The position numbers and the translations under genes were made by a program. Below the pieces are notes generated by a model that saw nothing but the letters and a program-made list of their open reading frames with translations, was not told the DNA's origin and did no database searches. Below, one piece after another: positions 20,913-39,933 of a stretch of DNA of 39,933 bases. Every line of letters begins with the position of its first letter. Positions within the stretch are counted from its first letter, which is position 1. This DNA is from a virus (taxonomy: Duplodnaviria > Heunggongvirae > Uroviricota > Caudoviricetes), in the IMG/VR virus record IMGVR_UViG_2778261217_000006, positions 1-39,933 of that record, one strand, 5' to 3'.

Positions 20913-22679
20913 ATGAACACCACACTGACACCCGCAGATCTCGATCCCCGTCGGCAGGCCATGCTGCTGTACTTTCAGGGATACCGCGTAGCCCGCATTG
21001 CTGAAATGCTGGGCGAGAAAGTTGCAACCGTTCACAGCTGGAAAAAACGCGACAAGTGGGGTGACTATGGGCCGCTGGATCAGATGCAGCTCACCACCGC
21101 CGCACGCTATTGCCAGCTCATTATGAAGGAGCACAAAGAAGGGAAAGATTTCAAAGAAATTGACCTGCTGGCACGCCAGTCGGAGCGCCACGCGCGGATC
21201 GGCAAGTTTAACAATGGCGGCAACGAAGCCGACTTAAACCCTAACGTCGCCAACCGCAACAAAGGGCCGCGCCGTCAGCCGGAAAAGAATGTTTTCACCG
21301 ATGAACAGATTGAGAAGCTGGAAGAAATCTTCCATTCCTCCATGTTCAACTACCAGCGCCACTGGTGGGAAGCTGGAAAAACCAACCGCATCCGTAATCT
21401 GCTGAAGTCACGCCAGATCGGCGCGACCTTTTACTTTGCCCGTGAAGCCCTGATTGACGCCCTGCTTACCGGACGTAACCAGATTTTCCTTTCTGCCAGT
21501 AAGGCACAGGCTCACGTCTTTAAGCAATACATCATCGACTTCGCCAAAGAAGTCGAGGTGGAGCTGAAAGGCGATCCGATGGTGCTTCCTAACGGGGCCA
21601 CGCTTTACTTCCTCGGCACCAATGCCCGCACTGCCCAGAGTTATCACGGCAACCTATATCTGGATGAATATTTCTGGATACCGAAATTCCAGGAGCTGCG
21701 CAAAGTGGCTTCCGGTATGGCTATTCACAAAAAATGGCGACAAACCTATTTTTCCACGCCATCCAGCCTGACACACAGTGCTTATCCGTTCTGGTCTGGT
21801 GCGCTGTTCAACCGTGGGCGCAACAAAGCCGATAAGGTGGACATCGACCTGTCCCACAGCAATCTGGCCCCCGGCCTGCTGTGCGCAGACGGGCAATACC
21901 GCCAGATAGTCACCGTGGAAGATGCAGTGCGCGGCGGATGTAACCTTTTCGACCTCGATCAGTTGCGCATGGAGTACAGCCCGGACGAATACCAGAACCT
22001 GCTGATGTGCGAGTTTGTGGACGATCTCGCGTCCGTGTTCCCGCTCAGCGAGCTGCAGGCGTGCATGGTGGACAGTTGGGAAGTCTGGAGCGACTTTCAT
22101 GCACTGGCCCTGCGCCCGTTTGGCTGGCGCGAAGTGTGGATCGGTTATGACCCGGCAAAAGGTACGCAAAACGGCGACAGCGCCGGGTGCGTGGTGGTGG
22201 CACCGCCAGCCGTGCCGGGCGGTAAGTTCCGCATTCTTGAGCGTCACCAGTGGCGCGGGATGGACTTCCGCGCCCAGGCTGACGCCATCAAAAAACTGAC
22301 TGAACAGTACAACGTGACCTACATCGGCATCGACTCAACCGGCGTCGGTCACGGGGTTTACGAGAACGTGAAAGCGTTTTTTCCTGCCGTCCGGGAGTTT
22401 GTCTACAACCCCAACGTTAAAAACGCCCTGGTACTCAAGGCCTACGACATTATTAGCCACCGCCGCCTGGAGTTTGACGCTGGGCACACCGACATAGCGC
22501 AGTCCTTTATGGCAATCCGTCGCGCCACCACTGCCAGCGGCAACCGCCCGACCTATGAAGCCAGCCGCAGCGAAGAAGCCAGCCACGCCGATCTGGCCTG
22601 GGCAACAATGCACGCACTGTTTAATGAACCGCTGCAGGGCGAGTCCGCCAATACCAGCAATATTGTGGAGATTTTTTGA
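20913..22679 (+). CDS. P: Terminase large (ATPase) subunit gpP
   Basis: 588 aa, P2 P-like. Confidence 0.9.
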   Translation: MNTTLTPADLDPRRQAMLLYFQGYRVARIAEMLGEKVATVHSWKKRDKWGDYGPLDQMQLTTAARYCQLIMKEHKEGKDFKEIDLLARQSERHARIGKFNNGGNEADLNPNVANRNKGPRRQPEKNVFTDEQIEKLEEIFHSSMFNYQRHWWEAGKTNRIRNLLKSRQIGATFYFAREALIDALLTGRNQIFLSASKAQAHVFKQYIIDFAKEVEVELKGDPMVLPNGATLYFLGTNARTAQSYHGNLYLDEYFWIPKFQELRKVASGMAIHKKWRQTYFSTPSSLTHSAYPFWSGALFNRGRNKADKVDIDLSHSNLAPGLLCADGQYRQIVTVEDAVRGGCNLFDLDQLRMEYSPDEYQNLLMCEFVDDLASVFPLSELQACMVDSWEVWSDFHALALRPFGWREVWIGYDPAKGTQNGDSAGCVVVAPPAVPGGKFRILERHQWRGMDFRAQADAIKKLTEQYNVTYIGIDSTGVGHGVYENVKAFFPAVREFVYNPNVKNALVLKAYDIISHRRLEFDAGHTDIAQSFMAIRRATTASGNRPTYEASRSEEASHADLAWATMHALFNEPLQGESANTSNIVEIF

Positions 22680-23716
22680 TGGGAAAGAGTAAGAAAAACC
22701 GCGCTGCGGCGACGAATCAGCTCAAGCATAAAAGCCAAACTTTAGCCGAAGCATTCAGCTTTGGCGATCCCGTTCCTGTTCTGGACCGCCGTGAACTGCT
22801 GGACTATGTGGAATGCGTACAGATGGATCGCTGGTATGAGCCGCCCGTCAGCTTTGACGGACTGGCACGAACCTTCCGCGCCGCCGTGCATCACAGCTCA
22901 CCAATTGCGGTGAAATGCAACATTCTGACCAGTACCTACATCCCTCACCCGCTGCTCAGCCAGCAGGCTTTTTCACGTTTTGTGCAGGACTATCTGGTAT
23001 TTGGTAACGCCTACCTGGAGAAACGCACGAACCGCTTCGGTGAAGTTATCGCCCTTGAGCCTGCTCTGGCAAAATACACCCGACGCGGGTTAGACCTGGA
23101 TACCTACTGGTTTGTGCAATACGGTATGACAACCCAGCCGTATCAGTTCACGAAAGGCAGCATTTTTCATCTGATGGAACCTGACATCAACCAGGAGATC
23201 TACGGCCTACCAGGTTATCTTTCTGCCATTCCGTCAGCCCTGCTCAACGAGTCCGCCACGCTGTTCCGCCGGAAGTATTACATTAACGGCAGCCATGCAG
23301 GCTTCATCATGTACATGACCGATGCCGCGCAGAACCAGGAGGATGTGAACAACCTCCGCAATGCGATGAAAAGCGCCAAAGGCCCTGGCAACTTCCGCAA
23401 CCTGTTTATGTACTCGCCTAACGGCAAAAAGGACGGACTTCAGATTATCCCGTTGTCAGAAGTCGCAGCGAAGGATGAGTTTCTGAATATCAAGAACGTG
23501 AGCCGTGATGACATGATGGCTGCGCACCGCGTGCCGCCGCAAATGATGGGGATTATGCCTAATAATGTCGGGGGATTTGGTGATGTGGAAAAGGCCAGCA
23601 AAGTCTTTGTCCGAAACGAGCTAATTCCGCTACAGAAGCGGCTGCAAGAACTTAACCAATGGGTTGGTGAAGAGGTAGCTCGCTTTGAATCATATTGTCT
23701 AGAACCAAGGGAATAA
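22676..23716 (+). CDS. Q: Portal protein gpQ
   Basis: 346 aa, P2 Q-like; overlaps P by 4 nt. Confidence 0.9.
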   Translation: MMGKSKKNRAAATNQLKHKSQTLAEAFSFGDPVPVLDRRELLDYVECVQMDRWYEPPVSFDGLARTFRAAVHHSSPIAVKCNILTSTYIPHPLLSQQAFSRFVQDYLVFGNAYLEKRTNRFGEVIALEPALAKYTRRGLDLDTYWFVQYGMTTQPYQFTKGSIFHLMEPDINQEIYGLPGYLSAIPSALLNESATLFRRKYYINGSHAGFIMYMTDAAQNQEDVNNLRNAMKSAKGPGNFRNLFMYSPNGKKDGLQIIPLSEVAAKDEFLNIKNVSRDDMMAAHRVPPQMMGIMPNNVGGFGDVEKASKVFVRNELIPLQKRLQELNQWVGEEVARFESYCLEPRE

Positions 23717-23719
23717 ATG

Positions 23720-23755
23720 TACTGTTTGTTCAAATTGAACACACAGTACTTTTTA
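23720..23755 (+). terminator. Hairpin with T-run after Q (likely terminator between the convergent Q and cargo operon)
   Basis: GTACTGTTTGTTCAA-A-TTGAACACACAGTAC followed by TTTTT. Confidence 0.4.
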
Positions 23756-23760
23756 ATATA

Positions 23761-24600
23761 TTAGATGGCTGGGTTGATGTAATCACCCACGTCATCACCT
23801 TGTAGACTAATGTACTCAACCCGCCACTGGTCCATTCGCCGTAACGCATACAGACTGAATTCAACGTCAGGAACTGCGTTACAAGACATAAGCGCAATGA
23901 GTTCACTTTCAGACGCATCACCATGGTACGTTACAAAGAACTCTTCAATTTGTGTTGCCGCCTGCTCTGCCTCTGCTCTTGCATCCGGCCCACCATCTAT
24001 AGAATCATAGACAAGATGAATATTCAGTTCGTAAGGTACACCTTCCTCTAAATCATTGAAACGATCTTCGCCTAAATCAAAGAATACACCTATCAAATAG
24101 ACTGAATGTTTGCTAATTATCTTTGCGAGTTCTTTTTCGAATCTAAATTTCTTTGTGTCGAAAGCTCTTAGCCTACTCTCAAAAACATCAGGAAAGGCAG
24201 GTCGCCCATAGCGGGCAGCAAGCCATTGTTTTAAACCTTGCTTTTCCTCAGGGGATATTTGGCAAGTAGGGTCACATCCCACACACGTGAAACGTTCTTT
24301 ATCAATACGAAATTTGTTGTCATGTCTTAGTTCAATTGCATTTTGATTCGCGTCACGCGCTTGCTCTAAATGCAAATGCAGAACTCTGGGATGTTTAGCA
24401 CGTGCATAATTGCTGGCCCCCTTAATGAGAGGGCCAGCAATAAGCTCAACGCTGGGTTCAGAAGAGCTTTGCAAGTCACAATCATGACTGATCACGACAA
24501 CTTTAACGCCTATTTCCTCTTCGGTAAGAATACCCAAAGAAACTGCATCCTCATGCCTAAGAACCTGGCCTTGGCGCCATGCTGTAGCAATATCAACCAT
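23761..24600 (-). CDS. Hypothetical protein, cargo operon gene 3 (279 aa)
   Basis: ATG with AAGGAG upstream; 10 bp after the gene 2 stop; no family I can recognise (Cys cluster FTCVGCDPTC, acidic C-terminus). Confidence 0.7.
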   Translation of the reverse strand: MVDIATAWRQGQVLRHEDAVSLGILTEEEIGVKVVVISHDCDLQSSSEPSVELIAGPLIKGASNYARAKHPRVLHLHLEQARDANQNAIELRHDNKFRIDKERFTCVGCDPTCQISPEEKQGLKQWLAARYGRPAFPDVFESRLRAFDTKKFRFEKELAKIISKHSVYLIGVFFDLGEDRFNDLEEGVPYELNIHLVYDSIDGGPDARAEAEQAATQIEEFFVTYHGDASESELIALMSCNAVPDVEFSLYALRRMDQWRVEYISLQGDDVGDYINPAI

Positions 24601-24610
24601 AAATGACTAT

Positions 24611-25252
24611 CTACTCCTTCATTCCTGAACCAGGTATAGAAACAGACGACATCCACCCGTCAGTTGGCGTGCTTTTGCTCCCAGTTAAATTCGCTTTTAC
24701 ACCTGCAATTTTAAGCTGGCGAGCTTCATCGATTAAGAGATTCACAGACGACTTCCAGTCATCGCCTCGCTTAATCAAATCAATAATAGATAAGCCGTCA
24801 AACGCTTTCATTTTTGACATCAACTTAGCATTTTCTACTCCTGCTTTGTTAAAGCGATCGGCTAATCTACTGAGTTCAATGATGTAACCAGCTTTCCCAA
24901 TATCATCAGGCTGACTGTCACCGGATAACCATTTGTATAATGCTTGCCTAGTAATACCCAAATCTTTAGCCAGTTCTGACATTGATGGAGAAAGAGTATC
25001 CCTAACATTACTTAAATGTTCTGAAATTGTCCTGATATCAACAGGGTCATTATCTGTATCCCCATGATTTTCAAGTTTAGATAACCCAAAATGGACTTTA
25101 GGTTGTACAAAACCACGCCACTGGTTTACATCCTTCACAGAATAGCTCGCTCCTGTTCCACTCAGGAACATAGAGGTTGCAACAAATAACGCTCCAGCAA
25201 TAGGAGCTAAACCAGGAGTCCCATAGCAACTACCAGTCATGGATTGACGCAT
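24611..25252 (-). CDS. Hypothetical protein with central XRE-type helix-turn-helix, cargo operon gene 2 (213 aa)
   Basis: Start set at the ATG preceded by GGGGAGGTG (the track ORF begins at a GTG at 25279); HTH MSELAKDLGITRQALYKWLSG; hydrophobic Gly-rich N-terminal segment. Confidence 0.7.
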   Translation of the reverse strand: MRQSMTGSCYGTPGLAPIAGALFVATSMFLSGTGASYSVKDVNQWRGFVQPKVHFGLSKLENHGDTDNDPVDIRTISEHLSNVRDTLSPSMSELAKDLGITRQALYKWLSGDSQPDDIGKAGYIIELSRLADRFNKAGVENAKLMSKMKAFDGLSIIDLIKRGDDWKSSVNLLIDEARQLKIAGVKANLTGSKSTPTDGWMSSVSIPGSGMKE

Positions 25253-25269
25253 ATTACACCTCCCCGGTG

Positions 25270-26076
25270 TTATACCCACCTATTAATGGCATGTTGGGAT
25301 ACCATTTTATTAAAGCTTTCCTTTACAACACCATGTAGTGAATTGAACTGTTGCTCAATTGAATCTATTTCTGGCGGCATGTTTCCTTCAACATAATGGT
25401 CTGTATCAATAATTCCATGCCAAAGAGCCTTGTCGCTCCTGAACCGCTCAAGCATTTCAACCCCAAAGGGCAAGATATCTGGAGGAAAACTCAACTGACC
25501 AAACATCTTATGCAAACGAGTTACTAAAAAGCCAGTACTTATAACAGGACCAACATTTGTTTGGAAAACCATCTCGTTAACCGATTGTATCGGAGATAAA
25601 TCCAAATCTACACCATGTAAGCCATTGCAAAGGTACTGCTCAATCTTTTCACCCTCACTAGGTATTACGGCATCCAGATACCTCAAACCAAGTCTTGTCA
25701 AAAGGGCTGGGTTAGCATGTTCTATTACGACAGACAATCCTTCCATCAATGCTTTAAAGAACGGTTCATGTTCTTTGTAATCAGTCGTCTGGAAAGTAAT
25801 AAAATCGTTACCCAAGACAAAACCTGAAGTCTTAGTGATGTCAGACATATACCACTGCTGGACCATTTCAAAAGATGGCTGAGGCGATTCACCGGGCGTA
25901 TTAACATCAAACACCATTTGCATTGCCTCTCTTCTTTCAAAGAGTGGATAGCCCCTTAAACGCAATGCTTCCTGAATGTCATCGACATACTTTTTCATCG
26001 CCTTGATAGGCGTAAACTTAACTTGCGCCAGCACATAGTATACGGGTGCATTGGACATGCGATTGCTGTCACTCAT
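25270..26076 (-). CDS. Hypothetical protein, cargo operon gene 1 (268 aa)
   Basis: ATG preceded by AGGAGG; first gene of a co-directional trio; no recognisable P2/186 core homolog. Confidence 0.75.
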   Translation of the reverse strand: MSDSNRMSNAPVYYVLAQVKFTPIKAMKKYVDDIQEALRLRGYPLFERREAMQMVFDVNTPGESPQPSFEMVQQWYMSDITKTSGFVLGNDFITFQTTDYKEHEPFFKALMEGLSVVIEHANPALLTRLGLRYLDAVIPSEGEKIEQYLCNGLHGVDLDLSPIQSVNEMVFQTNVGPVISTGFLVTRLHKMFGQLSFPPDILPFGVEMLERFRSDKALWHGIIDTDHYVEGNMPPEIDSIEQQFNSLHGVVKESFNKMVSQHAINRWV

Positions 26077-26211
26077 GTCGCCCTCCTAATTTTAAAATCC
26101 ATCAATAACGTTCTTTTCAATATAGTTTACATCTTGGTTGACACATTAACCATAACAAAGTTCCATCAAAACATCTTTTGATAACTTTATATTTAAACTA
26201 CCGGGCGCGCG

Positions 26212-26230
26212 CTCGTATCCCCGCCACGCC
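26212..26230 (-). other. Candidate cos (cohesive end) site
   Basis: Minus strand reads GGCGTGGCGGGGATACGAG; the first 13 nt match the conserved core of the P2/186 19-nt cohesive ends as I recall them (GGCG[A/T]GGCGGGGA...). Confidence 0.5.
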
Positions 26231-26275
26231 TGCCCGCTTTATGTAGTGGTTTTCATGCACCTGCATGATCTACGC

Positions 26276-26299
26276 AAAAGCCCGCCAGTTCTGGCGGGC
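26276..26299 (-). terminator. Hairpin downstream of the DinI-like gene
   Basis: GCCCGCCAG-TT-CTGGCGGGC stem-loop with a short U-run on the minus strand. Confidence 0.45.
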
Positions 26300-26434
26300 C
26301 TTAGCAAAAACGATCCTCAAACGATCATGCGATCTCATGCGGCATAGACATGCACTACAGAGCTAACGCCTCGCAAGGACTCGTTGTTCAACCTTGCTGA
26401 CGCCAGAAGCAAGTTCAGACGCCAGCAACGTTTC

Positions 26435-26668
26435 TTAATGCAGCCAGCTGTCGTCTTCCCACACCTTCTGCATAATTTTCATCACTTGTTTTCTTTCTTC
26501 GTCCTGTTGCAGCCCGGTCAGTTCCACACCGTTAGAGCTACCTTTGCGGATACGAATTACCATTTTGGGATACAGGGGGCGCAGATTGCGGTAAAGCTCG
26601 GATTCAAGGGCGTCCAGGGTAGACTGGCTAATCTTCTGCTCTTTATCGATCATTATTTCAATGCGCAT
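26435..26668 (-). CDS. DinI-family protein (78 aa)
   Basis: MRIEIMIDK...IDALESEL...VWEDDSWLH aligns along its length with E. coli DinI; start set at the ATG with GAGG upstream (the track ORF begins at 26740). Confidence 0.8.
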   Translation of the reverse strand: MRIEIMIDKEQKISQSTLDALESELYRNLRPLYPKMVIRIRKGSSNGVELTGLQQDEERKQVMKIMQKVWEDDSWLH

Positions 26669-26678
26669 AAAAGTCACC

Positions 26679-26867
26679 TCAGCTGATGACATCCATTGAG
26701 CGGTTGTATTCGTGGCTTCTGATTTTTGCCATGAGTTCATCAGTCAATTCAGAAACCCACTGCAGAGCCAGCCCCTTCTCTTCATCACTACACTCACTAG
26801 CCGCTACAAGCTTAAGAAAAAAATCAATGCGCTGGAGCTTCAAAGACTCCAAAAAAAAGTCCTGCAT
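26679..26867 (-). CDS. Small hypothetical protein (62 aa), first gene of the LexA-box operon
   Basis: ATG preceded by AGGAGGAAAG; directly downstream of the LexA box. Confidence 0.55.
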   Translation of the reverse strand: MQDFFLESLKLQRIDFFLKLVAASECSDEEKGLALQWVSELTDELMAKIRSHEYNRSMDVIS

Positions 26868-27021: not shown

Positions 27022-29436
27022 TCAATACAGGTTCCGCCACTTATCATCTTCCTGCAAACGCTGGTTCCGATAGAAGATACGCAGGCCTGCTCCTGACGGA
27101 ATACTGCCGCCGCGAATGAGTAAATCGACCTCTTTCTCGCTGCCATCAAATCCTCTGGACTTCAGTTCATAGACGAGCTGCTGTCGTTGATGGTCAGTAA
27201 TTCGCTGTTTGTAGTCTCTACGCCGTTTCGGTTTCACCAGGCGTAACCTTGCAGCCAGTTCCCGGCGCTCTTTTTTGTTCATACTGTGCAGGTAATCGTG
27301 CAACTCCTTGTCATCCATGCGGGTGATATCCGTTCTGGTATCCCCATCAGCTGATTTGTCTTTCCCTTGTTGGTACAAATTTTCAGCAAGGGGACAGTTA
27401 TTGCCACGAGTCCAAGGGGCGCAAGCGCCCTGGTCGGCTGCCGCCTCCTGAACGTCAACGGCCTTACGAACCATTTTCCACTTCACTGCATGAGTGCAGA
27501 TCTTGCCCTCTGCAATGGGTGACCAGATGCCATAAATACGAATACCGTGATCGCCATAGGCGGTCGGCTCTTCGTTAATTTCATAAGCAGTTCTGATGAG
27601 GTGATATTTACGGGGAACCAGTACACCTCCCTGCTTCATGATATAGGTGGCAAAACAACCAGCATCAGCAGCAGCCAGAATGGCATCAAGGCGCGGGTTA
27701 TCCAGTACCGGCACACCTGCTTTTTTGTCACCCTGCTGCCTTGCCGCCTGACCAGCCAGCAATCGCAGTTCACGGTAAGCCTGACGCCCCGGAATGCCAA
27801 AGAAGCGGAATTGCTGAACACGATGCAAAGACGCCCAGGCATTCACGTATTCAGCGTTATCACGCAGAGATTTACCCGTTTCCTTGCTGATCTCGCCAGC
27901 CAGACCACGCCCGTCAATGTTCTTGCTGATATATTTCGCGATGTAGCTTGTCGGCGTTCCTTTGCGCGGGTTAATCAACTCAGACTTAAAGCGTGGTCCC
28001 GTGTTATTCCCCAGCTCCTCGCGGTCTTCACGAATGGCAAACTTACGCAACAAAGCAGTAATGGCGCGGCGATCTTTTTTGCGCATGAAACACAACAGGT
28101 GCCAGTGAACTGTGCCGTCATGATGCGGCTCAGCCACCCGCACGCCATACCAGCGCAACCCGGCTTTGTGCATAGCCTTACGAAATGCAGCAAACATACC
28201 GACCAGATAATCGCTGCTTTGTCTTACTGTCGCGTTGGTCCAGGTCGGGTTTGGCCTGCCGTTATTTAGCGTGGAATGGAAACGTGACGGACAGGTGATG
28301 GTGTAGAAAACGGCGCAGTCACCACGCATTTCCGCGATAAGCTCCAGACCTTTAACGCAGGCCATCATCTCATTGCGGCGATGCGCCGGGTTGCTGCTGC
28401 TGGCGTTTACCACATCCTCCATGTCCAGCATGTCGCCGTCTTCGTTCACCAGTTCATGAGAACGGAAAAACTCCAGCGACTTACGGCGCTGCTCACGTTT
28501 ATGCATCACGGCTTCATAGCTGACATAGGGAGATGCTTTTTTGCTGACCAGACAGACAGCACGCAACTGCTCTTCCCGCCATTCGCAACGCATCTTCCAT
28601 AATTTCCGATACCACCAGTCGGCGCACAGCATACGCGCCAGCGAACCCGGAATGAGTTCATAGGGCACAGGTTTGCGGCGGTTTCTTTTCCGGCGGAGTT
28701 GCTCAAACGCAGGCGGTATGACATCCAGTCGCAGGGTTTCTGCTGCCACCTTTTCCCATGTCTTGCGGATTTCTTCCGGCTTAACATCATCGGAGGCGTA
28801 CAAATCACCACAAGCGGCATCAAGACACATGCTCATATGCGCAGCGACAAGGGTGGACAGGCGTTTCACCTGATCCTGACTCATTTCAGGCAGGATCAGC
28901 AGACCATCCAGCCCTTCATGGCTTGCCATAAAACGAAAAGATGCAGATAGCTGGCTGTCGCGTACATGCTCCAGTCGTTCCAGGCATGGCTTAATCGTCT
29001 CACGCAAATAGCGGGAATAAGCCTTTGGCCTGCCCAGGTTGCTGAAGTATTTAATACGTTGCATCAGCGGCTTGCTGATATGGGAAGGCTGGGCGTTGAC
29101 ATCCGCCAGAATGACCATGTCTGGATTAAAACGCTGCTGCTCATGCGCCAGCTTTGCCCGGCTAATTAGCTTATCCTGCTCCATTTCGCGCTGGACAGGA
29201 TCACGGGATTCATTAAAGAAATAACGCTCCCAGACCTGATCACTCAGTGCCTCGCGGCGCAGTTGTTCCTGCTCGTTATCGGCAGCGTACAGAGTGATCA
29301 GATTTGAAAGCGCAGAAACCGGCGCAACTTCCGCCGGGTCCAGATAAGGGTTAATGGCCTTTTTCGGGCTGTTCCATGAGAATGCTGCGGCAGCCTCGTT
29401 AAAGCCGCAGCAGTTGTTCATATCGGCATGACTCAT
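27022..29436 (-). CDS. A: Replication initiation endonuclease gpA (rolling-circle)
   Basis: 804 aa, P2/186 A-like. Confidence 0.9.
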
Positions 29437-33356: not shown

Positions 33357-34382
33357 ATGACCATCAGAAAACAGCCGAACGGAAAGTGGTTATGTGAATG
33401 CTACCCAAACGGGAGAGATGGCAAACGCGTACGCAAACAATTTGCGACGAAAGGCGAAGCCATTGCGTTTGAGAATTTCACCATGGATGAGGTAAACAAG
33501 AAACCTTGGCTGGGAGAAAAGGAAGATCGGCGACAACTGTCAGAAGTGATTGAGCAATGGTATTCCCTGTACGGTCAGACACTCGCTGACCCTAAGCGAT
33601 TAATGGCTAAGTTAAAAATCATTTGTAATGGACTTGGCGATCCCATCGCTTCTGAATTGACAGCAGGTGATTTCACAAAGTACCGGGAAGCCAGATTAAA
33701 AGGTGAGGTCAAAAACGAAGATGGCGTGCTCATGTCACCGGTTAAGCCCAGAACGGTGAACCTTGAACAGCGTAACCTATCCTCAGTTTTTGGCACACTG
33801 AAAAAGCTGGGACATTGGTCTGCACCCAACCCCCTCGCCGGTCTGCCAACTTTCAAAATTGCAGAAGGTGAACTGGCGTTCCTTGCTGCTGATGAAATCA
33901 AACGCCTGCTTGACGCATGTGCTGAATCTCAAAGTCCCAGTCTGCTAATGATTGCCAAGATTTGCCTGGCTACCGGGGCAAGATGGAGCGAAGCCGAAAA
34001 CCTGCAAGGTAACCAGATATCAAAGTATCGAATTACCTATACCAAAACAAAAGGAAAGAAAAACCGAACTGTTCCTATTTCTCAGGAACTGTATGAAGAA
34101 TTACCCAAAAACAGAGGAAAGTTATTCACACCATGCCGAAAGGCTTTTGAGCGTGCGGTAAAACGAGCTGGAATTGAACTACCTGAAGGTCAATGTACCC
34201 ACGTTCTGCGCCACACTTTCGCCAGTCACTTTATGATGAACGGCGGAAACATTTTGGTATTGAGGGATATTTTAGGACACGCTGATATTAAAATGACCAT
34301 GATTTATGCCCATTTTGCACCGGATCATCTGGAAGATGCCGTTACCAAAAATCCACTTCATAACCTCAACTGGCATCGCTAA
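33357..34382 (+). CDS. int: Tyrosine integrase (P2/186 type)
   Basis: 341 aa with catalytic RHRY context (ARWSE, HVLRHTF, MIYAHF); 4 nt after cI and about 120 bp from the att repeat. Confidence 0.9.
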   Translation: MTIRKQPNGKWLCECYPNGRDGKRVRKQFATKGEAIAFENFTMDEVNKKPWLGEKEDRRQLSEVIEQWYSLYGQTLADPKRLMAKLKIICNGLGDPIASELTAGDFTKYREARLKGEVKNEDGVLMSPVKPRTVNLEQRNLSSVFGTLKKLGHWSAPNPLAGLPTFKIAEGELAFLAADEIKRLLDACAESQSPSLLMIAKICLATGARWSEAENLQGNQISKYRITYTKTKGKKNRTVPISQELYEELPKNRGKLFTPCRKAFERAVKRAGIELPEGQCTHVLRHTFASHFMMNGGNILVLRDILGHADIKMTMIYAHFAPDHLEDAVTKNPLHNLNWHR

Positions 34383-34544: not shown

Positions 34545-34709
34545 CTTTTTAGTTGTTTGAAGTTCAATGAAGTCTACTAAGCCCACACAGCACAAGCTCT
34601 GCGGGCTTTTTTACGTCTATTGTCGTCCAGTGAGAATTGCTGAGAACTACGAGTTATGGCACCCTGAATGGGACCCATTAAGAAGGGTCCAAAAACCGAG
34701 GGTCCCAAA

Positions 34710-35939
34710 ATGGCAAAAATCGCTAAGAAGCTCACTGACACTGAAATCAAAAGCACCAAGCCAGCCGATAAAGAAATCAACTTGTTTGACGGTGATGGTC
34801 TGATTCTACGAATCGCTCCTTTGGCGAAAGGAGGCAAGAAAAATTGGTATTTCAGGTATGCAGTACCAGTGAGCAAGAAAAGAACCAAAATGAGCCTTGG
34901 GACATATCCTCACCTTACCCTTGCAAGAGCCAGAGCCTTACGTGATGAATATCTCTCCTTTCTGGCAAATGGTGTTGATCCCCAAATCCATAACAACGAT
35001 AAGGCGAAGGCATTAAAGAGTGCTACTGAGCACACTCTCCAAGCCGTAGCGCGGAAATGGTTAGATGAGAAGGTAAAGACATCAGGTATCTCACAAGACC
35101 ATGCAGCAGACATCTGGCGCAGCTTAGAGAGAAATGTCTTTCCCGGTCTGGGTAATGTCCCTATCAATGAGATCCGACCTAAGCTCTTAAAACAACACCT
35201 TGATCCTATTGAGCAACGAGGCGTATTGGAAACTCTACGCCGTATCATTTCACGTCTGAATGAAATCTTCCGGTGGGCAGCTACTGAAGAACTTATTGAG
35301 TTCAACCCGGCTGACAACCTTGGTCAAAGATTCAGTAAACCAAAAAAGCAAAATATGCCTGCCCTTCCCCCAAGCGAATTGCCAAGGTTTATGGAATCTT
35401 TGACGAATGCGTCAATCCGGTTGGAAACACGTATGCTAATTGAATGGCAATTGTTGACATGGGTTCGTCCGGGTGAAGCCGTTCGCGCAAGGTGGTCTGA
35501 TATTGATACAACCAACAGCATTTGGAACATTCCTGCTGATTTCATGAAAATGAAAAAGCTTCACAAAGTTCCTTTGAGTAAAGAAGCTTTGCGCATCCTT
35601 GAATTAATGAAATCAATAAGTGGGCATAGAGAATGGGTTTTCCCCAGCATAAAAGCGCCTCTTAATCATATGCATGAACAAACAGCCAACGCAGCTATCA
35701 TCCGAATGGGGTTCGGAGGCGAGCTTGTAGCTCACGGTATGCGTTCTATTGCACGAACAGCGGCAGAGGAGTCTGGTAAATTCAGAGCTGAAGTTCTTGA
35801 GGCAGCGCTTGCCCACTCGAAAAAAGATGAAATTATCGCAGCATACAATCGTGCAGAATATCTGATAGAGCGACAGAGTTTGATGCAATGGTGGAGTGAT
35901 TACGTTCAAGCTCAAAGATCAAATGCTCTGGTAGCCTAA
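34710..35939 (+). CDS. P4-type tyrosine integrase (IntA-like)
   Basis: Begins MAKIAKKLTDTEIKSTKPADKEINLFDGDGL..., the typical P4-integrase N-terminus; ATG at 34710 has GAGGG upstream (the track ORF starts at 34668). Confidence 0.85.
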   Translation: MAKIAKKLTDTEIKSTKPADKEINLFDGDGLILRIAPLAKGGKKNWYFRYAVPVSKKRTKMSLGTYPHLTLARARALRDEYLSFLANGVDPQIHNNDKAKALKSATEHTLQAVARKWLDEKVKTSGISQDHAADIWRSLERNVFPGLGNVPINEIRPKLLKQHLDPIEQRGVLETLRRIISRLNEIFRWAATEELIEFNPADNLGQRFSKPKKQNMPALPPSELPRFMESLTNASIRLETRMLIEWQLLTWVRPGEAVRARWSDIDTTNSIWNIPADFMKMKKLHKVPLSKEALRILELMKSISGHREWVFPSIKAPLNHMHEQTANAAIIRMGFGGELVAHGMRSIARTAAEESGKFRAEVLEAALAHSKKDEIIAAYNRAEYLIERQSLMQWWSDYVQAQRSNALVA

Positions 35940-35977
35940 GTATCAGAATAGCTAATATAATCCTGAAGGTAAAGAAA

Positions 35978-36394
35978 ATGGAAACCCTATTCAAAGTTTT
36001 TGAAAAATTTAGTTCCAGACCACTTTTTTTTATTTTTTTCGGACTCTCACTTTGTGAATTTTTTCAGAAACAATCTGTTCTGATGAATCCATCAGCAGAT
36101 AACATCGCGAAATTATTCGCAGCCATGATATTAGTTGTTTTTTTTACTTGGGGATTTGAATGGCTAATCTTCAAGTTCAATGTAAACCTTGAACCTCATG
36201 ATCAAGGCGATATTGGACCAACAATTGGAACGGCTACTTTAGCTGTATACTTAGTTTATGCCTTTCACTTTCTCAGTGAAAATCCTGAAGCATTAAATTT
36301 AAAGTTATTAACTAACTCTGGCTTTATATACAGCACAACTCTATTATTATTCTCATTAGAATGCATGAAGCTTAGAAGACTTAAACAAAAATAA
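35978..36394 (+). CDS. Small hydrophobic membrane protein (138 aa), hypothetical
   Basis: Several predicted transmembrane stretches; AT-rich; AAGG upstream of the ATG. Confidence 0.45.
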   Translation: METLFKVFEKFSSRPLFFIFFGLSLCEFFQKQSVLMNPSADNIAKLFAAMILVVFFTWGFEWLIFKFNVNLEPHDQGDIGPTIGTATLAVYLVYAFHFLSENPEALNLKLLTNSGFIYSTTLLLFSLECMKLRRLKQK

Positions 36395-36465
36395 ACAACA
36401 TCATTGTGATGATAAATATAAAATAGGCATGGCGAAAAAAAATCACCACGCCTAAAATATAATAA

Positions 36466-38214
36466 TTATGGTAGCATCATTGATACATAATCCACACCAA
36501 TCCTTGAGCTATACTGAGACGCTATAGCCTGATATCTTTCTGCATAACCAGTTCTCAGTTGAGATTTAAGTTTGAGTCGGACAGGAACATTTTGCACGTT
36601 GCCATCCATATTACTTAAAAACACGGCAGAAATAATATTTTTTTCTTCGCCATCAACTGTTGTTCCATGATTCAACACCACCATATAATCAACAACAGGA
36701 AGCGTTTTATCCCCTTCGAAAATAGAGAGATATTTTCTTTGATTTTTATGCATTACATATATATATTTCGAATGTTCAGCAAATGGCAATGCTTTACTCT
36801 GACTGGCGTTAAAAAGCTCCAGAACTTTAATGAGCCTGTGCGGACTTAATCTTACATGGTGAGGGTCGTTACCCTGAGTAGGAACCAAATCACATGCCGC
36901 AGATACACATAAATACCATTTGTTCGACTCTGTATCAAAGAAAATAGTGCCAGTAGAAATATGACCATCTTCAAAATTCTTTGAAGACAAATTCATATTT
37001 AAAGCATGATACATTTCGTGATAAGTATCATTATTTGATGGCAGATCCATTTTTGAAGAGCAATATTGGAGCAATGCAGCAACTCCGCTGTTAGCGTATT
37101 CATTTGAATAGCTATCAAAAACACTTTTGATAAATTCATCCAGCGTATTATTATTTTTAAGTCTTTGATAAAGCTCTTCTGATAAATTACCAAATACAAA
37201 GTCAATATTTCTACATCTAATATCAGGCGAGTCTGATTTTAATATCTCATTTAACCACGCAGCTTGACCGTAATGATCGTTAGCCAAATGATTTACAAAA
37301 GATAAAGCCTCAGCTTCGATTGCATTCTGAATTTCAGATTTTATTAACTGATAATAAGATGGTTTCCATTCAATGAGAGAATCATTGAGAGTTTGCCAAA
37401 TCCTATCTCCATCGTTTTCATGATCATCTTGAACCTTATGAAATAGGGAGACAAAGATATTACCACATTGAATCCATTTTACTCCGCTTTCATCACCCCG
37501 AATGACATTGCCAGATGTGTTGCTAGAAATAATTGCATTTCTAGACACAGCATATTCTGCAATCATTTTTGCAATGAAGTTTTTATCCTTTTGATCCTCC
37601 AACACAGCATCATCATGTATTAATCTTTTAATTCTTCTACAAGGCTTACTGTCTTTAATATAGGCTATTGTTTCATCTCTTGTGAGAGCTTTATTACCAT
37701 TATCATTTAAGTTCGGTAATACAACGTCTTCCCAATAACTTTGGACATCTTCATTATCGTAGTCAATGATCAAGCTGTTGATATCCAGAGCACCTTTGAG
37801 AGTCGATGATATCTGCATCCAAACCGTTTCTAAATTCTCTCTAGTATATATTACAATCATATTTAAATGATCGGAGTCTTTCAAATCTTGTAATAGTTTA
37901 AGTGTTTTATCAGGTGCATTATTATCAAGATGATAATCTACAATAATAAGATCTGATTTTCTAATCCGATCCACATCGAAATTAACAGAACCATTGTCAA
38001 CATCACAAATCATATTTTTAGATTGAAAAAAGCTCTCAAGAGTAGCGGCTCGTTTAGATGAGTCAATTTTGTTGTAGTCTAAATCAACTTCGTTATTCAA
38101 CGCCCTGATTGATTCAGAATACGTCAGAAAATCGTCATCAATCATGACAACGGAACGAATTGCATTTTCGCAGAAAGTTTTCTGGACAAGAGAATTATAA
38201 TTTGCCACTGTCAT
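36466..38214 (-). CDS. Receiver (REC)-like domain protein with large uncharacterised C-terminal domain
   Basis: N-terminus has receiver-like landmarks (VVMIDDD, DLIIVDYHL, NMIVIYT); about 440 aa C-terminal region unrecognised; start set at the ATG overlapping the kinase stop (TAATATG); the track ORF extends to 38232. Confidence 0.65.
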   Translation of the reverse strand: MTVANYNSLVQKTFCENAIRSVVMIDDDFLTYSESIRALNNEVDLDYNKIDSSKRAATLESFFQSKNMICDVDNGSVNFDVDRIRKSDLIIVDYHLDNNAPDKTLKLLQDLKDSDHLNMIVIYTRENLETVWMQISSTLKGALDINSLIIDYDNEDVQSYWEDVVLPNLNDNGNKALTRDETIAYIKDSKPCRRIKRLIHDDAVLEDQKDKNFIAKMIAEYAVSRNAIISSNTSGNVIRGDESGVKWIQCGNIFVSLFHKVQDDHENDGDRIWQTLNDSLIEWKPSYYQLIKSEIQNAIEAEALSFVNHLANDHYGQAAWLNEILKSDSPDIRCRNIDFVFGNLSEELYQRLKNNNTLDEFIKSVFDSYSNEYANSGVAALLQYCSSKMDLPSNNDTYHEMYHALNMNLSSKNFEDGHISTGTIFFDTESNKWYLCVSAACDLVPTQGNDPHHVRLSPHRLIKVLELFNASQSKALPFAEHSKYIYVMHKNQRKYLSIFEGDKTLPVVDYMVVLNHGTTVDGEEKNIISAVFLSNMDGNVQNVPVRLKLKSQLRTGYAERYQAIASQYSSRIGVDYVSMMLP

Positions 38215-38215
38215 A

Positions 38216-39052
38216 TTAGAACTCCACTCCATTGAACTGGATCACAAAATTAGCGCCATCTTTTATTAAATAGTTATCGCCTTCATCAGGTTCTGAATAC
38301 CATATTTTATGATGTGCAACAGCAAGGTTTTCTCGACATAGATACAGACCTACCCCATGTCCATTTGCTCTTTTGCTATAAAATAGTTCAAATAGTCGCG
38401 GGATATCATCGGTATCAATTGCCGGACCAGAATTTGCTATGATAACCAAAGAATTCACAAAACCAATCTTTATGAGCCTATTATTTGACAGACTGACCCA
38501 ATACATTGCATTGTTGATAATATTAGTAAAAACAGGATAGATCCTTGATGGTATATCTGTTATTGCGATTTGCTTAAACTCTTCACTAAATTCAATAGTT
38601 ATTCGTTGCCGTTCGAAACGCTCCCCAAAGAACTTCAGGACATAATCCATGATATTTTTTCCAGTTATTCTCTGCCTGGATTGATAACCTGATATTTTCA
38701 AAGGTGATAAGAAACGTATTTGTTGAGTAAGCGATCTGTGAGCATTTAACGCCAATGAAAAACCAGGGTGTTCTTTTACAGAAGTAGGAAGAGAGTTTAG
38801 TCCTCTGGTTACCATAGAATCCATTTCTTCAAGTTCATGAGATATTATCTCAACACTAATACCTAACTGTGCAAGCGCGTTTAAACTTTTAGCTTTTTCT
38901 TCAAAATATGAGCGTTCTTCTTCAGATAATGAGAATGCTGAATCTAAGTTTATACCTTCAAATAATCTATCGAGACCTTTTATTATTGATTGATATTTGA
39001 AAGTTAGGGTATCAACTGACTCAACATATAAACTATCGAGCAAATTAAACAC
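38216..39052 (-). CDS. Histidine-kinase-like protein (HisKA H-box plus HATPase_c N, G1, G2 boxes); frame is open upstream to 39226 with no start codon
   Basis: H-box ISHELEEM, N-box NIINNAMYW, G-boxes IANSGPAID and GHGVGLYL; the track start is a GTG; the frame continues upstream into the overlap with the next ORF. Confidence 0.7.
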   Translation of the reverse strand: MFNLLDSLYVESVDTLTFKYQSIIKGLDRLFEGINLDSAFSLSEEERSYFEEKAKSLNALAQLGISVEIISHELEEMDSMVTRGLNSLPTSVKEHPGFSLALNAHRSLTQQIRFLSPLKISGYQSRQRITGKNIMDYVLKFFGERFERQRITIEFSEEFKQIAITDIPSRIYPVFTNIINNAMYWVSLSNNRLIKIGFVNSLVIIANSGPAIDTDDIPRLFELFYSKRANGHGVGLYLCRENLAVAHHKIWYSEPDEGDNYLIKDGANFVIQFNGVEF

Positions 39053-39195
39053 ATTTTCAATTTGTGAATCATTATCTATTGAATCAACAACTGATATAGT
39101 TTTAGCATAATAATCACTTCGATCAACCTTTATTTCATCGGCCCATTTTTTTAAAAGAGAATGTATCTTCTCCTCTATCGTGTTATTAAACTTAG

Positions 39196-39933
39196 TTAGT
39201 TTAGAATTAATAATACCTTGATTTTTTCAAGGTGATTTTTCGCTGACAATGAAGGCTCAAGTTTATTTAATTCAGAATCAAGTTTATTAATTGCTAACTT
39301 CATTTGTAGAATATACGCAGAGAACTCATTAAATTTATCTCTGTAGTCTCTATATTTCTCTTCATACATTCCAAGTTTTGGAGGTTTGATAGGCGTTTTA
39401 ATTTCACTGCGCAACGCATCTAAGTTTGTAAGATCACTGTCTATAATTTTAAGATAGTTTAAATCTAACGAACCATCAGTTTTATCAAGCTTAGTTTTCA
39501 GCCTTTTAACAGCCTCCAAGGAAGCATCAAGAACTGGTGTCTGATTCTTCAAAGCTTCTGAAAAACTTTTTTGTGTTGATTTTCGAGCTTGTTGTTGAGC
39601 AGATTTTCTTAACTCTTTTTCACGCTTAACTTGTTCTAAAAGCTCTTTACGGTCATCAGAACGTGAACCAAAAAATCTATCAGCAAGTTCAGTTAACAAA
39701 TTAGATATAATAGTTTTCAGTTCTCTTGCAGCCTGGTTTCTTATGAATCCCTCTCTCCCCGACTTATCTTTCAGCTCTTTATTACTGGATTGAGTAATTC
39801 CAATATAACCAAAAATCCTTCTATTAGACCAATAATATCGCCCTGCATTCCATGAACGTCTTTCTTCTATCTGGAAGAAATCATTATCTACTCGACCATA
39901 AGGTAATACTCTCAAGCTATCCCTAAAAATCAT
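39196..39933 (-). CDS. Coiled-coil-rich ORF, 5' end beyond the window; probably the N-terminal part of the kinase gene separated by a frameshift
   Basis: Ends 30 nt inside the open upstream extension of the kinase frame; an A6 run lies at the frame junction. Confidence 0.55.
   Translation of the reverse strand: MIFRDSLRVLPYGRVDNDFFQIEERRSWNAGRYYWSNRRIFGYIGITQSSNKELKDKSGREGFIRNQAARELKTIISNLLTELADRFFGSRSDDRKELLEQVKREKELRKSAQQQARKSTQKSFSEALKNQTPVLDASLEAVKRLKTKLDKTDGSLDLNYLKIIDSDLTNLDALRSEIKTPIKPPKLGMYEEKYRDYRDKFNEFSAYILQMKLAINKLDSELNKLEPSLSAKNHLEKIKVLLILN

What the first reader, a model, noticed from the sequence alone, without database searches (positions are those of the whole stretch)
23761..26076. 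Three-gene cargo operon of unknown function between the candidate cos site and portal gene Q
Three tightly packed co-directional genes (268 aa; 213 aa with a central XRE-type HTH and a Gly-rich hydrophobic N-terminus; 279 aa with a Cys cluster) have strong ribosome-binding sites (AGGAGG, GGGGAGGTG, AAGGAG) and a hairpin separating them from the convergent Q gene. None resembles a P2/186 structural, lysis, replication or regulatory protein that I can recognise. They occupy a genome-end position where P2-like phages are known to carry variable anti-phage cargo (old, tin and other systems at the cos-proximal hotspot). This is the best candidate in the window for an undescribed prophage-encoded defence or superinfection-exclusion system, but the function is entirely inferred from context.
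Basis: partly seen in the sequence, partly recalled or inferred. Interest (0 to 1): 0.85.

Follow-up and report, generated by a model that had tools for sequence, protein, structure and literature searches.

The report
Uncharacterised three-gene prophage cargo cassette
Between the packaging site and the portal gene of a P2/186-like E. coli prophage sits a rare, self-contained three-gene cassette with its own conserved control site; the same cassette turns up in several bacterial phyla, often beside known anti-phage genes, so it is a good but still untested candidate for a new phage-defence or toxin-antitoxin-like system.

Summary
Three tightly packed minus-strand genes lie between a cos-like site and the convergent portal gene Q: A (268 aa, 26076..25270), B (213 aa, 25252..24611) and C (279 aa, 24600..23761). 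A strong hairpin closes the unit.

- **Cargo, not core.** The region is about 42% GC against about 55% in the flanks. The exact trio is in 1 of 5,426 complete E. coli genomes, and a variant 55-60% identical in protein is in 18, while 1,277 share the flank.
- **Parts.** A is a TIGR04255-family protein. Its model looks most like guanidino-kinase catalytic domains, at fold level only. B is a Cro/XRE HTH protein. C has no family; its N-terminal half models as a MazF-like barrel with an invariant DCD/E/E/R cluster, without sequence homology to MazF.
- **New here.** A-B-C order is intact in every locus with room, across Proteobacteria, Omnitrophota, Deinococcota and Cyanobacteria. All carry 12-bp-phased TGTMAAS heptamers upstream of A, probably B's operator.
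- **Context.** Outside phages the cassette sits in integrase/IS islands next to Hhe, Hma, restriction-modification systems and PD-Lambda-1.
- **Prior record.** It is absent from PADLOC and is not Rst_3HP. Rousset 2022 listed the variant as untested system #59.

Best reading: an autoregulated, TA-like defence cassette. Function is unproven.

The parts
25270..26076 (-). Gene A, 268 aa: TIGR04255-family protein, first gene of the cassette
24611..25252 (-). Gene B, 213 aa: Cro/XRE-type HTH protein (HTH at about residues 80-116), with a conserved C-terminal aromatic/acidic tail
   Evidence: ORF; RefSeq annotates the same 213-aa product. HTH_3 E 6e-5; 21 of 21 relatives hit HTH_3. Invariant R102, Q103, Y106, K107 and W108 in the recognition helix, and W200 and S205 in the tail. 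No other domain by Pfam or by a PDB profile search.
23761..24600 (-). Gene C, 279 aa: two-domain protein of an unnamed family, the predicted effector
26113..26164 (-). Conserved promoter/operator region upstream of A: GGAACTT (26164..26158), heptamers TGTCAAC (26143..26137) and TGTAAAC (26131..26125), and a degenerate third heptamer TGAAAAG (26119..26113), all at 12-bp phasing
   Evidence: The TGT[CA]AA[CT]-N5-TGT[CA]AAC pair lies 50-100 nt upstream of A's ATG in 57 loci, 42 distinct sequences. Related heptamer pairs occur in the deep branch, including Deinococcota and Cyanobacteria. Each pattern matches the 39.9-kb window essentially only here: one GGAACTT-N15-17-TCAA match (0.10 expected), and two overlapping heptamer-pair matches, both in this stretch (0.20 expected).
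23719..23749 (.). Hairpin between the convergent stops of C and portal gene Q, a likely bidirectional terminator
   Evidence: strand folding: 13-bp stem, dG -15.5 kcal/mol, z -3.95, 0 of 200 shuffles as stable, followed by AUUUAUU.
26212..26230 (-). cos-like cohesive-end sequence GGCGTGGCGGGGATACGAG, the upstream boundary of the cargo slot
   Evidence: Read. It matches the cos regions printed for P2 and for an E. coli P2-like clone in Rousset 2022 Table S2.

Best explanation
The locus is a self-contained, horizontally mobile three-gene cassette carried as accessory cargo in the cos-proximal hotspot of a 186/P2-like prophage.

**Shown**
- A, B and C are always found together, in this order and with tight spacing.
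- They sit behind a phylum-spanning array of 12-bp-phased TGTMAAS heptamers.
- The cassette moves between P2-like phages, integrase/IS islands and plasmids.
- It often neighbours known defence systems.

**Inferred**
- B, the Cro/XRE HTH protein, binds the heptamers and represses the operon's own promoter, as type II antitoxins do. It probably also holds the effector in check, perhaps through its conserved C-terminal aromatic tail.
- C is the effector. It has a MazF-fold barrel carrying an invariant D40-C41-D42 / E48 / E52 / R72 cluster (H39 nearly invariant). Once released, it would damage a nucleic acid or another essential target.
- A (TIGR04255) has a curved antiparallel sheet lined with invariant Arg, Asp and Glu residues. 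Its nearest structural neighbours are ATP-using guanidino kinases and glutamine-synthetase-type ligases. It would be the sensor or nucleotide-dependent switch that couples infection to release of C.

The net effect would be abortive infection or superinfection exclusion that benefits the lysogen.
For: **Cargo status**
- GC is 0.41-0.44 against about 0.55-0.58 in the flanking phage genes.
- The exact trio is in 1 of 5,426 complete E. coli genomes, while 1,277 share the flank. A trio whose proteins are 54-61% identical sits at the same spot in 18 genomes.
- The position is the gpA-gpQ hotspot where old, tin and many validated systems lie (PMC9122126; PMC9519451).

**Module integrity**
- A-B-C is present in order in every locus with room.
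- This includes P2-like phages whose portal is only 59-62% identical, a Serratia P2-like prophage whose C is 43% identical, and Methylomonas, Omnitrophica, Paraburkholderia and Arenimonas loci.
- It also includes a Meiothermus plasmid and a Gloeocapsa plasmid.

**Own regulation**
- The heptamer array is conserved upstream of A in all lineages, and the HTH recognition helix of B is invariant.

**Defence neighbourhood**
- 137 flanking ORFs from 21 non-P2 loci include Hhe (E 0), HmaA (E 0), type I restriction-modification proteins, a type IV methyl-directed restriction enzyme (6e-144), BrxHI/II, PD-Lambda-1 (5e-85), MzaC and DrmD.

**Effector-like features**
- C's N-terminal half matches the MazF fold and carries an invariant polar cluster.

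**Weak outside hint**
- The DefensePredictor SHAP table gives 'TIGR04255 family protein' neighbours a positive mean contribution.
Against: - No experiment exists. No paper in the library mentions TIGR04255. The cassette was not among the systems Rousset et al. cloned.
- No PADLOC model matches A or C.
- The MazF resemblance is fold-only. hhalign against a MazF/Kid profile gives probability 0.1%. By my own reading of the sequences, the residues I recall as catalytic in MazF are not conserved.
- Which protein is toxic, and whether any is, remains unknown.
- Several loci sit among ordinary metabolic genes.
- Neighbourhood evidence is descriptive and has no background control.
Confidence: 0.5

Rival explanations
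1. It is a plain addiction (toxin-antitoxin) module that stabilises the prophage or other mobile element and has no role against phages. B would be the labile antitoxin and repressor, C or A the toxin, and the third protein an accessory factor, as in other tripartite TA systems.
For: An HTH protein precedes a MazF-fold protein. An operator-like repeat overlaps the likely promoter. The cassette occurs on plasmids and small integrative islands. TA modules also populate the same hotspots.
Against: Three strictly co-inherited genes of 200-280 aa are larger and more complex than typical type II pairs. The frequent placement next to defence systems and in the P2 defence hotspot fits defence at least as well. 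Many TA-like systems have turned out to be defensive (PMC9519451), so the two readings are not exclusive.
Confidence: 0.2
2. It is a stress-responsive accessory module that the host envelope-stress sigma factor (RpoE type) switches on. It would carry out an enzymatic or regulatory task for the lysogen, a form of lysogenic conversion, rather than taking part in a conflict.
For: GGAACTT-N16-TCAAC lies upstream of A, close to the canonical RpoE motifs GGAACTT and TCAAA (PMC4890791 and PMC2893595). The same GAACTT spacing is seen in many loci, including one from an Omnitrophica genome. A has an enzyme-like fold.
Against: The GAACTT box is missing or degenerate in several lineages, whereas the heptamers are universal. 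A sigma-70 reading fits non-enteric loci equally well: TTGnnn or TGGAGA, 17-18 nt, then TAAACT. No transcription start data exist. This reading does not explain the mobility or the defence neighbourhood.
Confidence: 0.1
3. It is counter-defence or inter-phage competition cargo that helps the prophage or its progeny overcome host or rival systems, rather than protecting the cell.
For: The cassette sits at the very end of the packaged genome, next to cos. A DinI-like SOS modulator is its neighbour. Phage hotspots can hold anti-defence genes.
Against: The same cassette is common in non-phage chromosomal islands and plasmids in several phyla. That is unexpected for a phage-specific counter-defence. 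It also has an autoregulated, TA-like layout.
Confidence: 0.07
4. It is a conserved P2/186 core, structural, lysis, replication or regulatory function that the first reader failed to recognise.
For: None found.
Against: The cassette is absent from almost all related prophages that share both flanks. PHROGs has no family for A and no significant one for C. GC content is foreign to the phage. The cassette occurs outside phages.
Confidence: 0.01

Closest known systems
Accessory systems of the P2 cos-proximal (gpA-gpQ) hotspot: old, tin, Rst_3HP, DUF4238, DprA-PRTase and others (Rousset et al. 2022, PMC9122126)
   Same: Same genomic slot in P2-like prophages, foreign GC content, high turnover between otherwise near-identical prophages, and a small operon with its own promoter.
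   Different: No sequence relation to Rst_3HP, whose proteins are 333, 359 and 227 aa (best BLAST E 0.31, no HMM hit). No relation to any PADLOC model either. The cassette was only listed, as system #59 'HTH_31' and never tested. It lies on the Q side of cos, whereas by my recollection P2's old and tin lie on the A side.
MazEF / Kid-Kis type II toxin-antitoxin systems
   Different: No sequence-profile similarity (hhalign probability 0.1%; no PemK hit in Pfam). C is 279 aa with an extra alpha/beta domain and its own invariant DCD/E/E/R cluster (H39 nearly invariant). B is a 213-aa Cro/XRE protein rather than, as I recall it, an AbrB-type MazE. A third obligatory gene, A, is present.
Tripartite TA-like defence systems with an Xre component, for example PD-lambda-2 (Vassallo et al. 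2022, PMC9519451)
   Same: A three-gene operon, prophage-borne, with a central Xre-family HTH protein and TA-like logic in which the third component is needed for defence.
   Different: PD-lambda-2 has a HigB-like toxin, an Xre-peptidase fusion and a P4-antitoxin-like protein. None of its PADLOC models matches A, B or C.
Guanidino (arginine, taurocyamine, McsB) kinases and the glutamine-synthetase-type ligase fold
Minimal nucleotidyltransferase (MNT) antitoxins and AbiE-type HTH plus NTase pairs
   Different: The scores are weak. By my reading, the G[SG]...DxD nucleotidyltransferase motif is not present in recognisable form. No NTP_transf Pfam hit.

Membership tests
P2-like cos-proximal (gpA-gpQ) variable cargo / defence hotspot | Located between replication gene A / cos and portal gene Q of a P2-like prophage | tested here: met
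   gpA at 27022..29436 (-), cos-like site at 26212..26230, trio at 23761..26076, Q at 22676..23716. The same layout appears in the RefSeq annotation of H1 and in most IMG/VR loci.
P2-like cos-proximal (gpA-gpQ) variable cargo / defence hotspot | Content varies between otherwise closely related prophages | tested here: met
   1,277 genomes match the DinI-side flank and only 1 holds the trio. The diverged variant is in 18 of 5,426 genomes. Rousset Table S5B gives 69 occurrences, out of the 18,150 loci analysed in that study.
P2-like cos-proximal (gpA-gpQ) variable cargo / defence hotspot | Confers resistance to phage when cloned | not testable with these tools
   Requires plaque assays. The cassette is not among the systems cloned by Rousset et al. 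(Table S2).
TIGR04255 family (gene A) | Score above the NCBIfam curated cut-off over the full model | tested here: met
   161.2 bits against a cut-off of 30, E 3.9e-47, model positions 1-251 of 252. RefSeq names the gene TIGR04255 family protein.
Cro/C1 (XRE) HTH family (gene B) | HTH_3-type helix-turn-helix detectable by profile | tested here: met
   HTH_3 23.4 bits against a cut-off of 23. 21 of 21 aligned relatives hit HTH_3, and 21 of 21 hit P22_Cro.
Rst_3HP (Rousset 2022 'hp + hp + hp' P2-hotspot system) | Sequence homology of the three proteins | tested here: not met
   BLASTP best E 0.31. The A, B and C profile HMMs find nothing in the three 3HP proteins.
Any system in PADLOC-DB v2.0.0 | Profile match of the component proteins | tested here: not met
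   A and C have 0 families. B has only weak HTH-level hits (RmrA, mad1; E about 3e-3).
MazF/PemK toxin family (N-terminal half of C) | Fold: SH3-like barrel of MazF/Kid/CcdB | tested here: met
MazF/PemK toxin family (N-terminal half of C) | Sequence or profile homology, and the catalytic residues I recall for MazF | tested here: not met
   hhalign of A1 against a MazF/Kid alignment gives probability 0.14%. No PemK Pfam hit and no MazF hit in the PDB profile search. The conserved residues in C are a different set, DCD/E/E/R.
Type II toxin-antitoxin system | Toxic protein neutralised by an adjacent DNA-binding antitoxin that autoregulates the operon | tested here: inconclusive
   The layout fits: an HTH gene lies before a MazF-fold gene, and a conserved repeat array lies at the promoter. 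Toxicity, neutralisation and DNA binding are untested.
Phosphagen / protein-arginine (guanidino) kinases (gene A) | Homology to the ATP:guanidino phosphotransferase catalytic domain | tested here: inconclusive
RpoE (sigma-E) regulon promoter | GGAACTT at -35 and TCAAA at -10 with a spacer of about 16 nt | tested here: inconclusive
   GGAACTT-N16-TCAAC at 26164..26137 is the only such match in the window, with 0.10 expected. The consensus is taken from PMC4890791 and PMC2893595. The spacing is conserved in many loci but not all. No transcript data exist.

The most novel reading that the evidence does not exclude
The cassette is a previously unrecognised, pan-bacterial tripartite immune module.

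- TIGR04255, a protein with a guanidino-kinase / glutamine-synthetase-like fold, acts as a nucleotide-dependent sensor enzyme.
- On infection it modifies or displaces the Cro-like protein B, for example by phosphorylation or ligation. Infection might be signalled through envelope stress, acting on a sigma-E-type promoter.
- That releases a new kind of effector, a MazF-fold barrel with a D-C-D/E/E/R catalytic centre.

This would give the TIGR04255 family its first function and define a new effector chemistry on the MazF scaffold.
Probability: 0.15. Interest if true: 0.8.

Novelty: new variant of a known kind. Interest (0 to 1): 0.62.

Why it matters
TIGR04255 is a curated but functionless family, described as 'sporadically distributed'. 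This work explains that distribution: the protein travels as the first gene of a fixed three-gene mobile cassette.

The cassette is sizeable and ancient. Its third gene alone has about 2,000 clusters at 50% identity, and it occurs in at least four phyla. It carries its own conserved operator and sits in the best-validated defence hotspot of E. coli prophages.

If it is defensive, it adds a system with no homology to any catalogued one. It would also add two uncharacterised protein folds-in-context: an enzyme-like sensor, and a MazF-fold effector with a new conserved centre.

The conserved heptamer operator and the short list of invariant residues make the hypothesis directly testable with a few clones and point mutants.

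Tried and rejected
- **Rst_3HP.** I suspected the trio was the 'three hypothetical proteins' P2-hotspot system. The published sequences are unrelated.
- **Known defence systems.** PADLOC has no model for A or C. The Vassallo PD systems are three-gene in only two cases and have different domains.
- **B as an Xre antitoxin with an MbcA/ParS-type C-terminal toxin-binding domain.** Neither Pfam, on 21 relatives, nor a PDB profile search gave such a hit. No support found.
- **B as a membrane-anchored regulator.** The hydrophobic stretch is borderline (Kyte-Doolittle 1.56) and not conserved in distant relatives.
- **C's CxxCxxxC as a zinc site.** Those cysteines are not conserved.
- **C as a true MazF homologue.** hhalign probability is 0.1%.
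- **Sequence searches of A, B and C profiles against the PDB.** Nothing significant.
- **Simple sigma-70 promoter scan.** It found no site upstream of A. The promoter readings come from cross-locus conservation instead.
- **Literature.** Searches for TIGR04255, CHP04255, IPR026349 and the RefSeq accessions returned nothing.
- **AFDB Foldseek library.** Not available.
Full report
**1. What is in the sequence**

The finding's coordinates hold three minus-strand ORFs:
- A: 26076..25270, 268 aa.
- B: 25252..24611, 213 aa from the ATG that RefSeq also uses.
- C: 24600..23761, 279 aa.

The gaps between them are 17 and 10 nt, and Shine-Dalgarno sequences precede each gene. C ends 44 nt from the stop of the convergent portal gene Q (22676..23716). 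Between the two stops lies a 13-bp hairpin at 23719..23749 (dG -15.5 kcal/mol, z -3.95).

Upstream of A lies a cos-like GGCGTGGCGGGGATACGAG at 26230..26212. It matches the cos regions printed in Rousset 2022 Table S2. Beyond it come a terminator, a DinI-like gene (PF06183, E 5e-23), a 62-aa phrog_698 ORF and gpA.

The window is a 186/P2-like prophage. It encodes terminase, portal, capsid, tail proteins, gpA, a Dam-type methylase, CI and an integrase. The trio region is 41-44% GC, against about 55-58% in the neighbouring phage genes.

**2. Cargo, not core**

A megablast of 23700..26450 against 5,426 complete E. coli genomes found the flank in 1,277 genomes. The trio was in one, strain MFDS1001074, at 99.8% identity.

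A second version of the trio occupies exactly the same slot in another 186-like prophage. Its proteins are 57%, 54% and 61% identical to A, B and C. That version is present in 18 genomes.

**3. Prior knowledge**

Rousset et al. 2022 (PMC9122126) defined this gpA-gpQ interval as a defence hotspot.
- Their validated 'hp + hp + hp' system (Rst_3HP) is unrelated to this trio.
- The window's own B and C proteins (WP_130055671, WP_042104940) appear in their Table S5A as 'hypothetical'.
- The diverged trio is system #59 ('HTH_31', 69 occurrences) in Table S5B.
- It is not among the cloned systems.

PADLOC-DB v2 has no model for A or C. No paper in the library mentions TIGR04255. The DefensePredictor paper only lists 'TIGR04255 family protein' in its SHAP table, with a positive mean contribution as a neighbour.

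**4. The three proteins**

*A.* A is a full-length TIGR04255 member (E 4e-47).
- Its AlphaFold model is confident (pLDDT 91, pTM 0.87) and shows two beta-alpha-beta4-alpha-type repeats that form one large antiparallel sheet.
- AdoMetDC, TBP, class II aminoacyl-tRNA synthetase, glutamine synthetase, glutamate-cysteine ligase and PafA folds follow.
- This is fold-level similarity only. There is no sequence hit in Pfam or the PDB.
- Invariant R39, R128, R132, D135, E168, D224 and D226 are compatible with a nucleotide-Mg site, but this is inference.

*B.* B has a Cro/XRE HTH at about residues 80-116.
- The recognition helix is invariant (R102, Q103, Y106, K107, W108).
- An invariant Trp and Ser sit in a C-terminal tail, DW.S..SIPG. 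Deep-branch relatives keep an acidic/aromatic tail instead.

*C.* C belongs to an unnamed family.
- The family holds 2,081 representative clusters at 50% identity at E<=1e-3 and 1,435 at E<=1e-10. The 150 best-scoring members are mostly 260-290 aa.
- Its model (pLDDT 81, pTM 0.55) has two domains.
- hhalign against a MazF/Kid profile is negative (probability 0.1%), so C is not a MazF family member.
- Across relatives down to 26% identity the invariant residues are D40, C41, D42, E48, E52, R72, W126, R133 and S265. H39 and the W8-R9-Q10-G11 motif are nearly invariant. This is an enzyme-like polar cluster on the barrel.

**5. A fixed, mobile cassette**

Profile HMMs for A, B and C were run on all fetched loci. 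A-B-C appears in the same order and spacing in every locus with room; the only exceptions are loci cut by a contig end. The loci include:
- 47 IMG/VR contigs, most of them P2-like, with portal identity down to 59-62% and the trio always between cos and Q.
- A Serratia P2-like prophage whose C is 43% identical.
- Methylomonas, Omnitrophica, Paraburkholderia and Arenimonas loci.
- Integrase-bounded or IS-rich islands.
- Plasmids of Klebsiella, Meiothermus (Deinococcota) and Gloeocapsa (Cyanobacteria).

Distant TIGR04255 proteins, 29-36% identical to A, still have B and C homologues downstream.

**6.

A direct repeat, TGT[CA]AA[CT]-N5-TGT[CA]AAC, lies 50-100 nt upstream of A's start codon in 57 loci (42 distinct sequences).
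- In the window these heptamers are TGTCAAC (26143..26137) and TGTAAAC (26131..26125). A third, degenerate heptamer, TGAAAAG, follows 12 bp further on.
- Non-enteric loci carry a second 19-bp unit.
- The deep branch keeps 12-bp-phased TGTAAAG, TGTCAAG or TGTAAAC pairs, including in Meiothermus and Gloeocapsa.
- In the 39.9-kb window, the only matches (two overlapping ones) fall in this stretch.

A cis element that stays with a mobile cassette across phyla, next to an invariant HTH recognition helix, is best read as the operator of B. This is inferred, not shown.

Two promoter readings fit, and I could not decide between them.
- **Sigma-E type.** GGAACTT-N16-TCAAC at 26164..26137 resembles the RpoE consensus GGAACTT and TCAAA (PMC4890791 and PMC2893595). 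The spacing is conserved in many loci but not all.
- **Sigma-70 type.** The -10 would be TAAACT inside the second heptamer. The -35 would be TGGAGA or TTGnnn, 17-18 nt upstream. In this reading the heptamers sit on the core promoter.

**7. Neighbourhood**

I scanned 137 ORFs flanking the cassette in 21 non-P2 loci against PADLOC. They include Hhe (E 0), HmaA (E 0), PDC-S37, type I restriction-modification subunits, a type IV methyl-directed restriction enzyme, BrxHI/II, PD-Lambda-1, MzaC and DrmA/DrmD.

**8. Interpretation**

The best-supported reading is an autoregulated, TA-like defence or exclusion cassette.
- B is the repressor and neutraliser.
- C is the effector.
- A is the sensor or enzyme.

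I give roughly 0.5 to the defensive role and less to the specific wiring. A pure addiction module is the main rival (0.2). Stress-module and counter-defence readings are minor, and a phage core role is refuted.

**9. Novelty**

The cassette is not described functionally anywhere I could search, and it has no homology to catalogued systems. Its genomic logic, small autoregulated hotspot cargo of TA-like design, is of a known kind. I therefore rate it 'new variant of a known kind', with interest 0.62. It is worth cloning, and it offers an unusually clear set of testable residues and a defined operator.

Noticed in passing
window 34668-39933: Just past the prophage integrase (33357..34382) lies a second integrase, with an Arm-DNA-bind_3 domain (34668..35939). 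After it comes an AT-rich stretch, 32-36% GC. It encodes a 588-aa Response_reg_2 (PF19192) protein (36466..38232, -), a 278-aa HEF_HK/HATPase_c protein (38216..39052, -) and a 245-aa ORF that runs to the window end. None has a PADLOC hit. It looks like a separate island carrying a histidine-kinase-like pair, adjacent to the prophage.
   Followed up: partly
window 26113-26164 (-), and upstream of gene A in loci L001-L067: Phylum-spanning 12-bp-phased TGTMAAS heptamer array, plus a GGAACTT-N16-TCAAC box upstream of the TIGR04255 gene. I folded them into the finding as the likely operator and promoter.
   Followed up: yes
L064 7415-8077; L008 5232-5979: In one metagenomic locus C is truncated to 220 aa and lacks the C-terminal part. 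In another, B is split by a frameshift, while the otherwise identical locus L009 has it intact. These could be decay or assembly errors. If real, they bear on which component is dispensable.
   Followed up: no
L052 3417-5300: The reading frame that holds the A homologue stays open for about 628 codons, far longer than the usual ~265 aa. This may be an N-terminal fusion, or simply the absence of upstream stop codons.
   Followed up: no
L001 (NZ_CP106929) 4915-6292: In the only complete E. coli genome with the identical trio, the prophage's tape-measure gene and gpD-like (VgrG/Pvc8-family) gene are annotated as partial pseudogenes. The window has an intact 1,025-aa ORF at the corresponding place. 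The cassette therefore persists in a decaying prophage.
   Followed up: no
window 26435-26867 (-): The A-side of cos carries a DinI-like gene (PF06183, E 5e-23) and a 62-aa phrog_698 ORF. These two are the conserved flank shared by about 1,280 E. coli genomes. Variable cargo in this prophage type is therefore inserted on the Q side of cos.
   Followed up: partly
protein clusters P0190 versus P0001: The cluster holding the window's exact B sequence is recorded on 446 contigs. The clusters holding the exact C and A sequences are recorded on only 2-4 contigs. This could be an indexing difference, or it could mean B is shared between trio variants.
   Followed up: no
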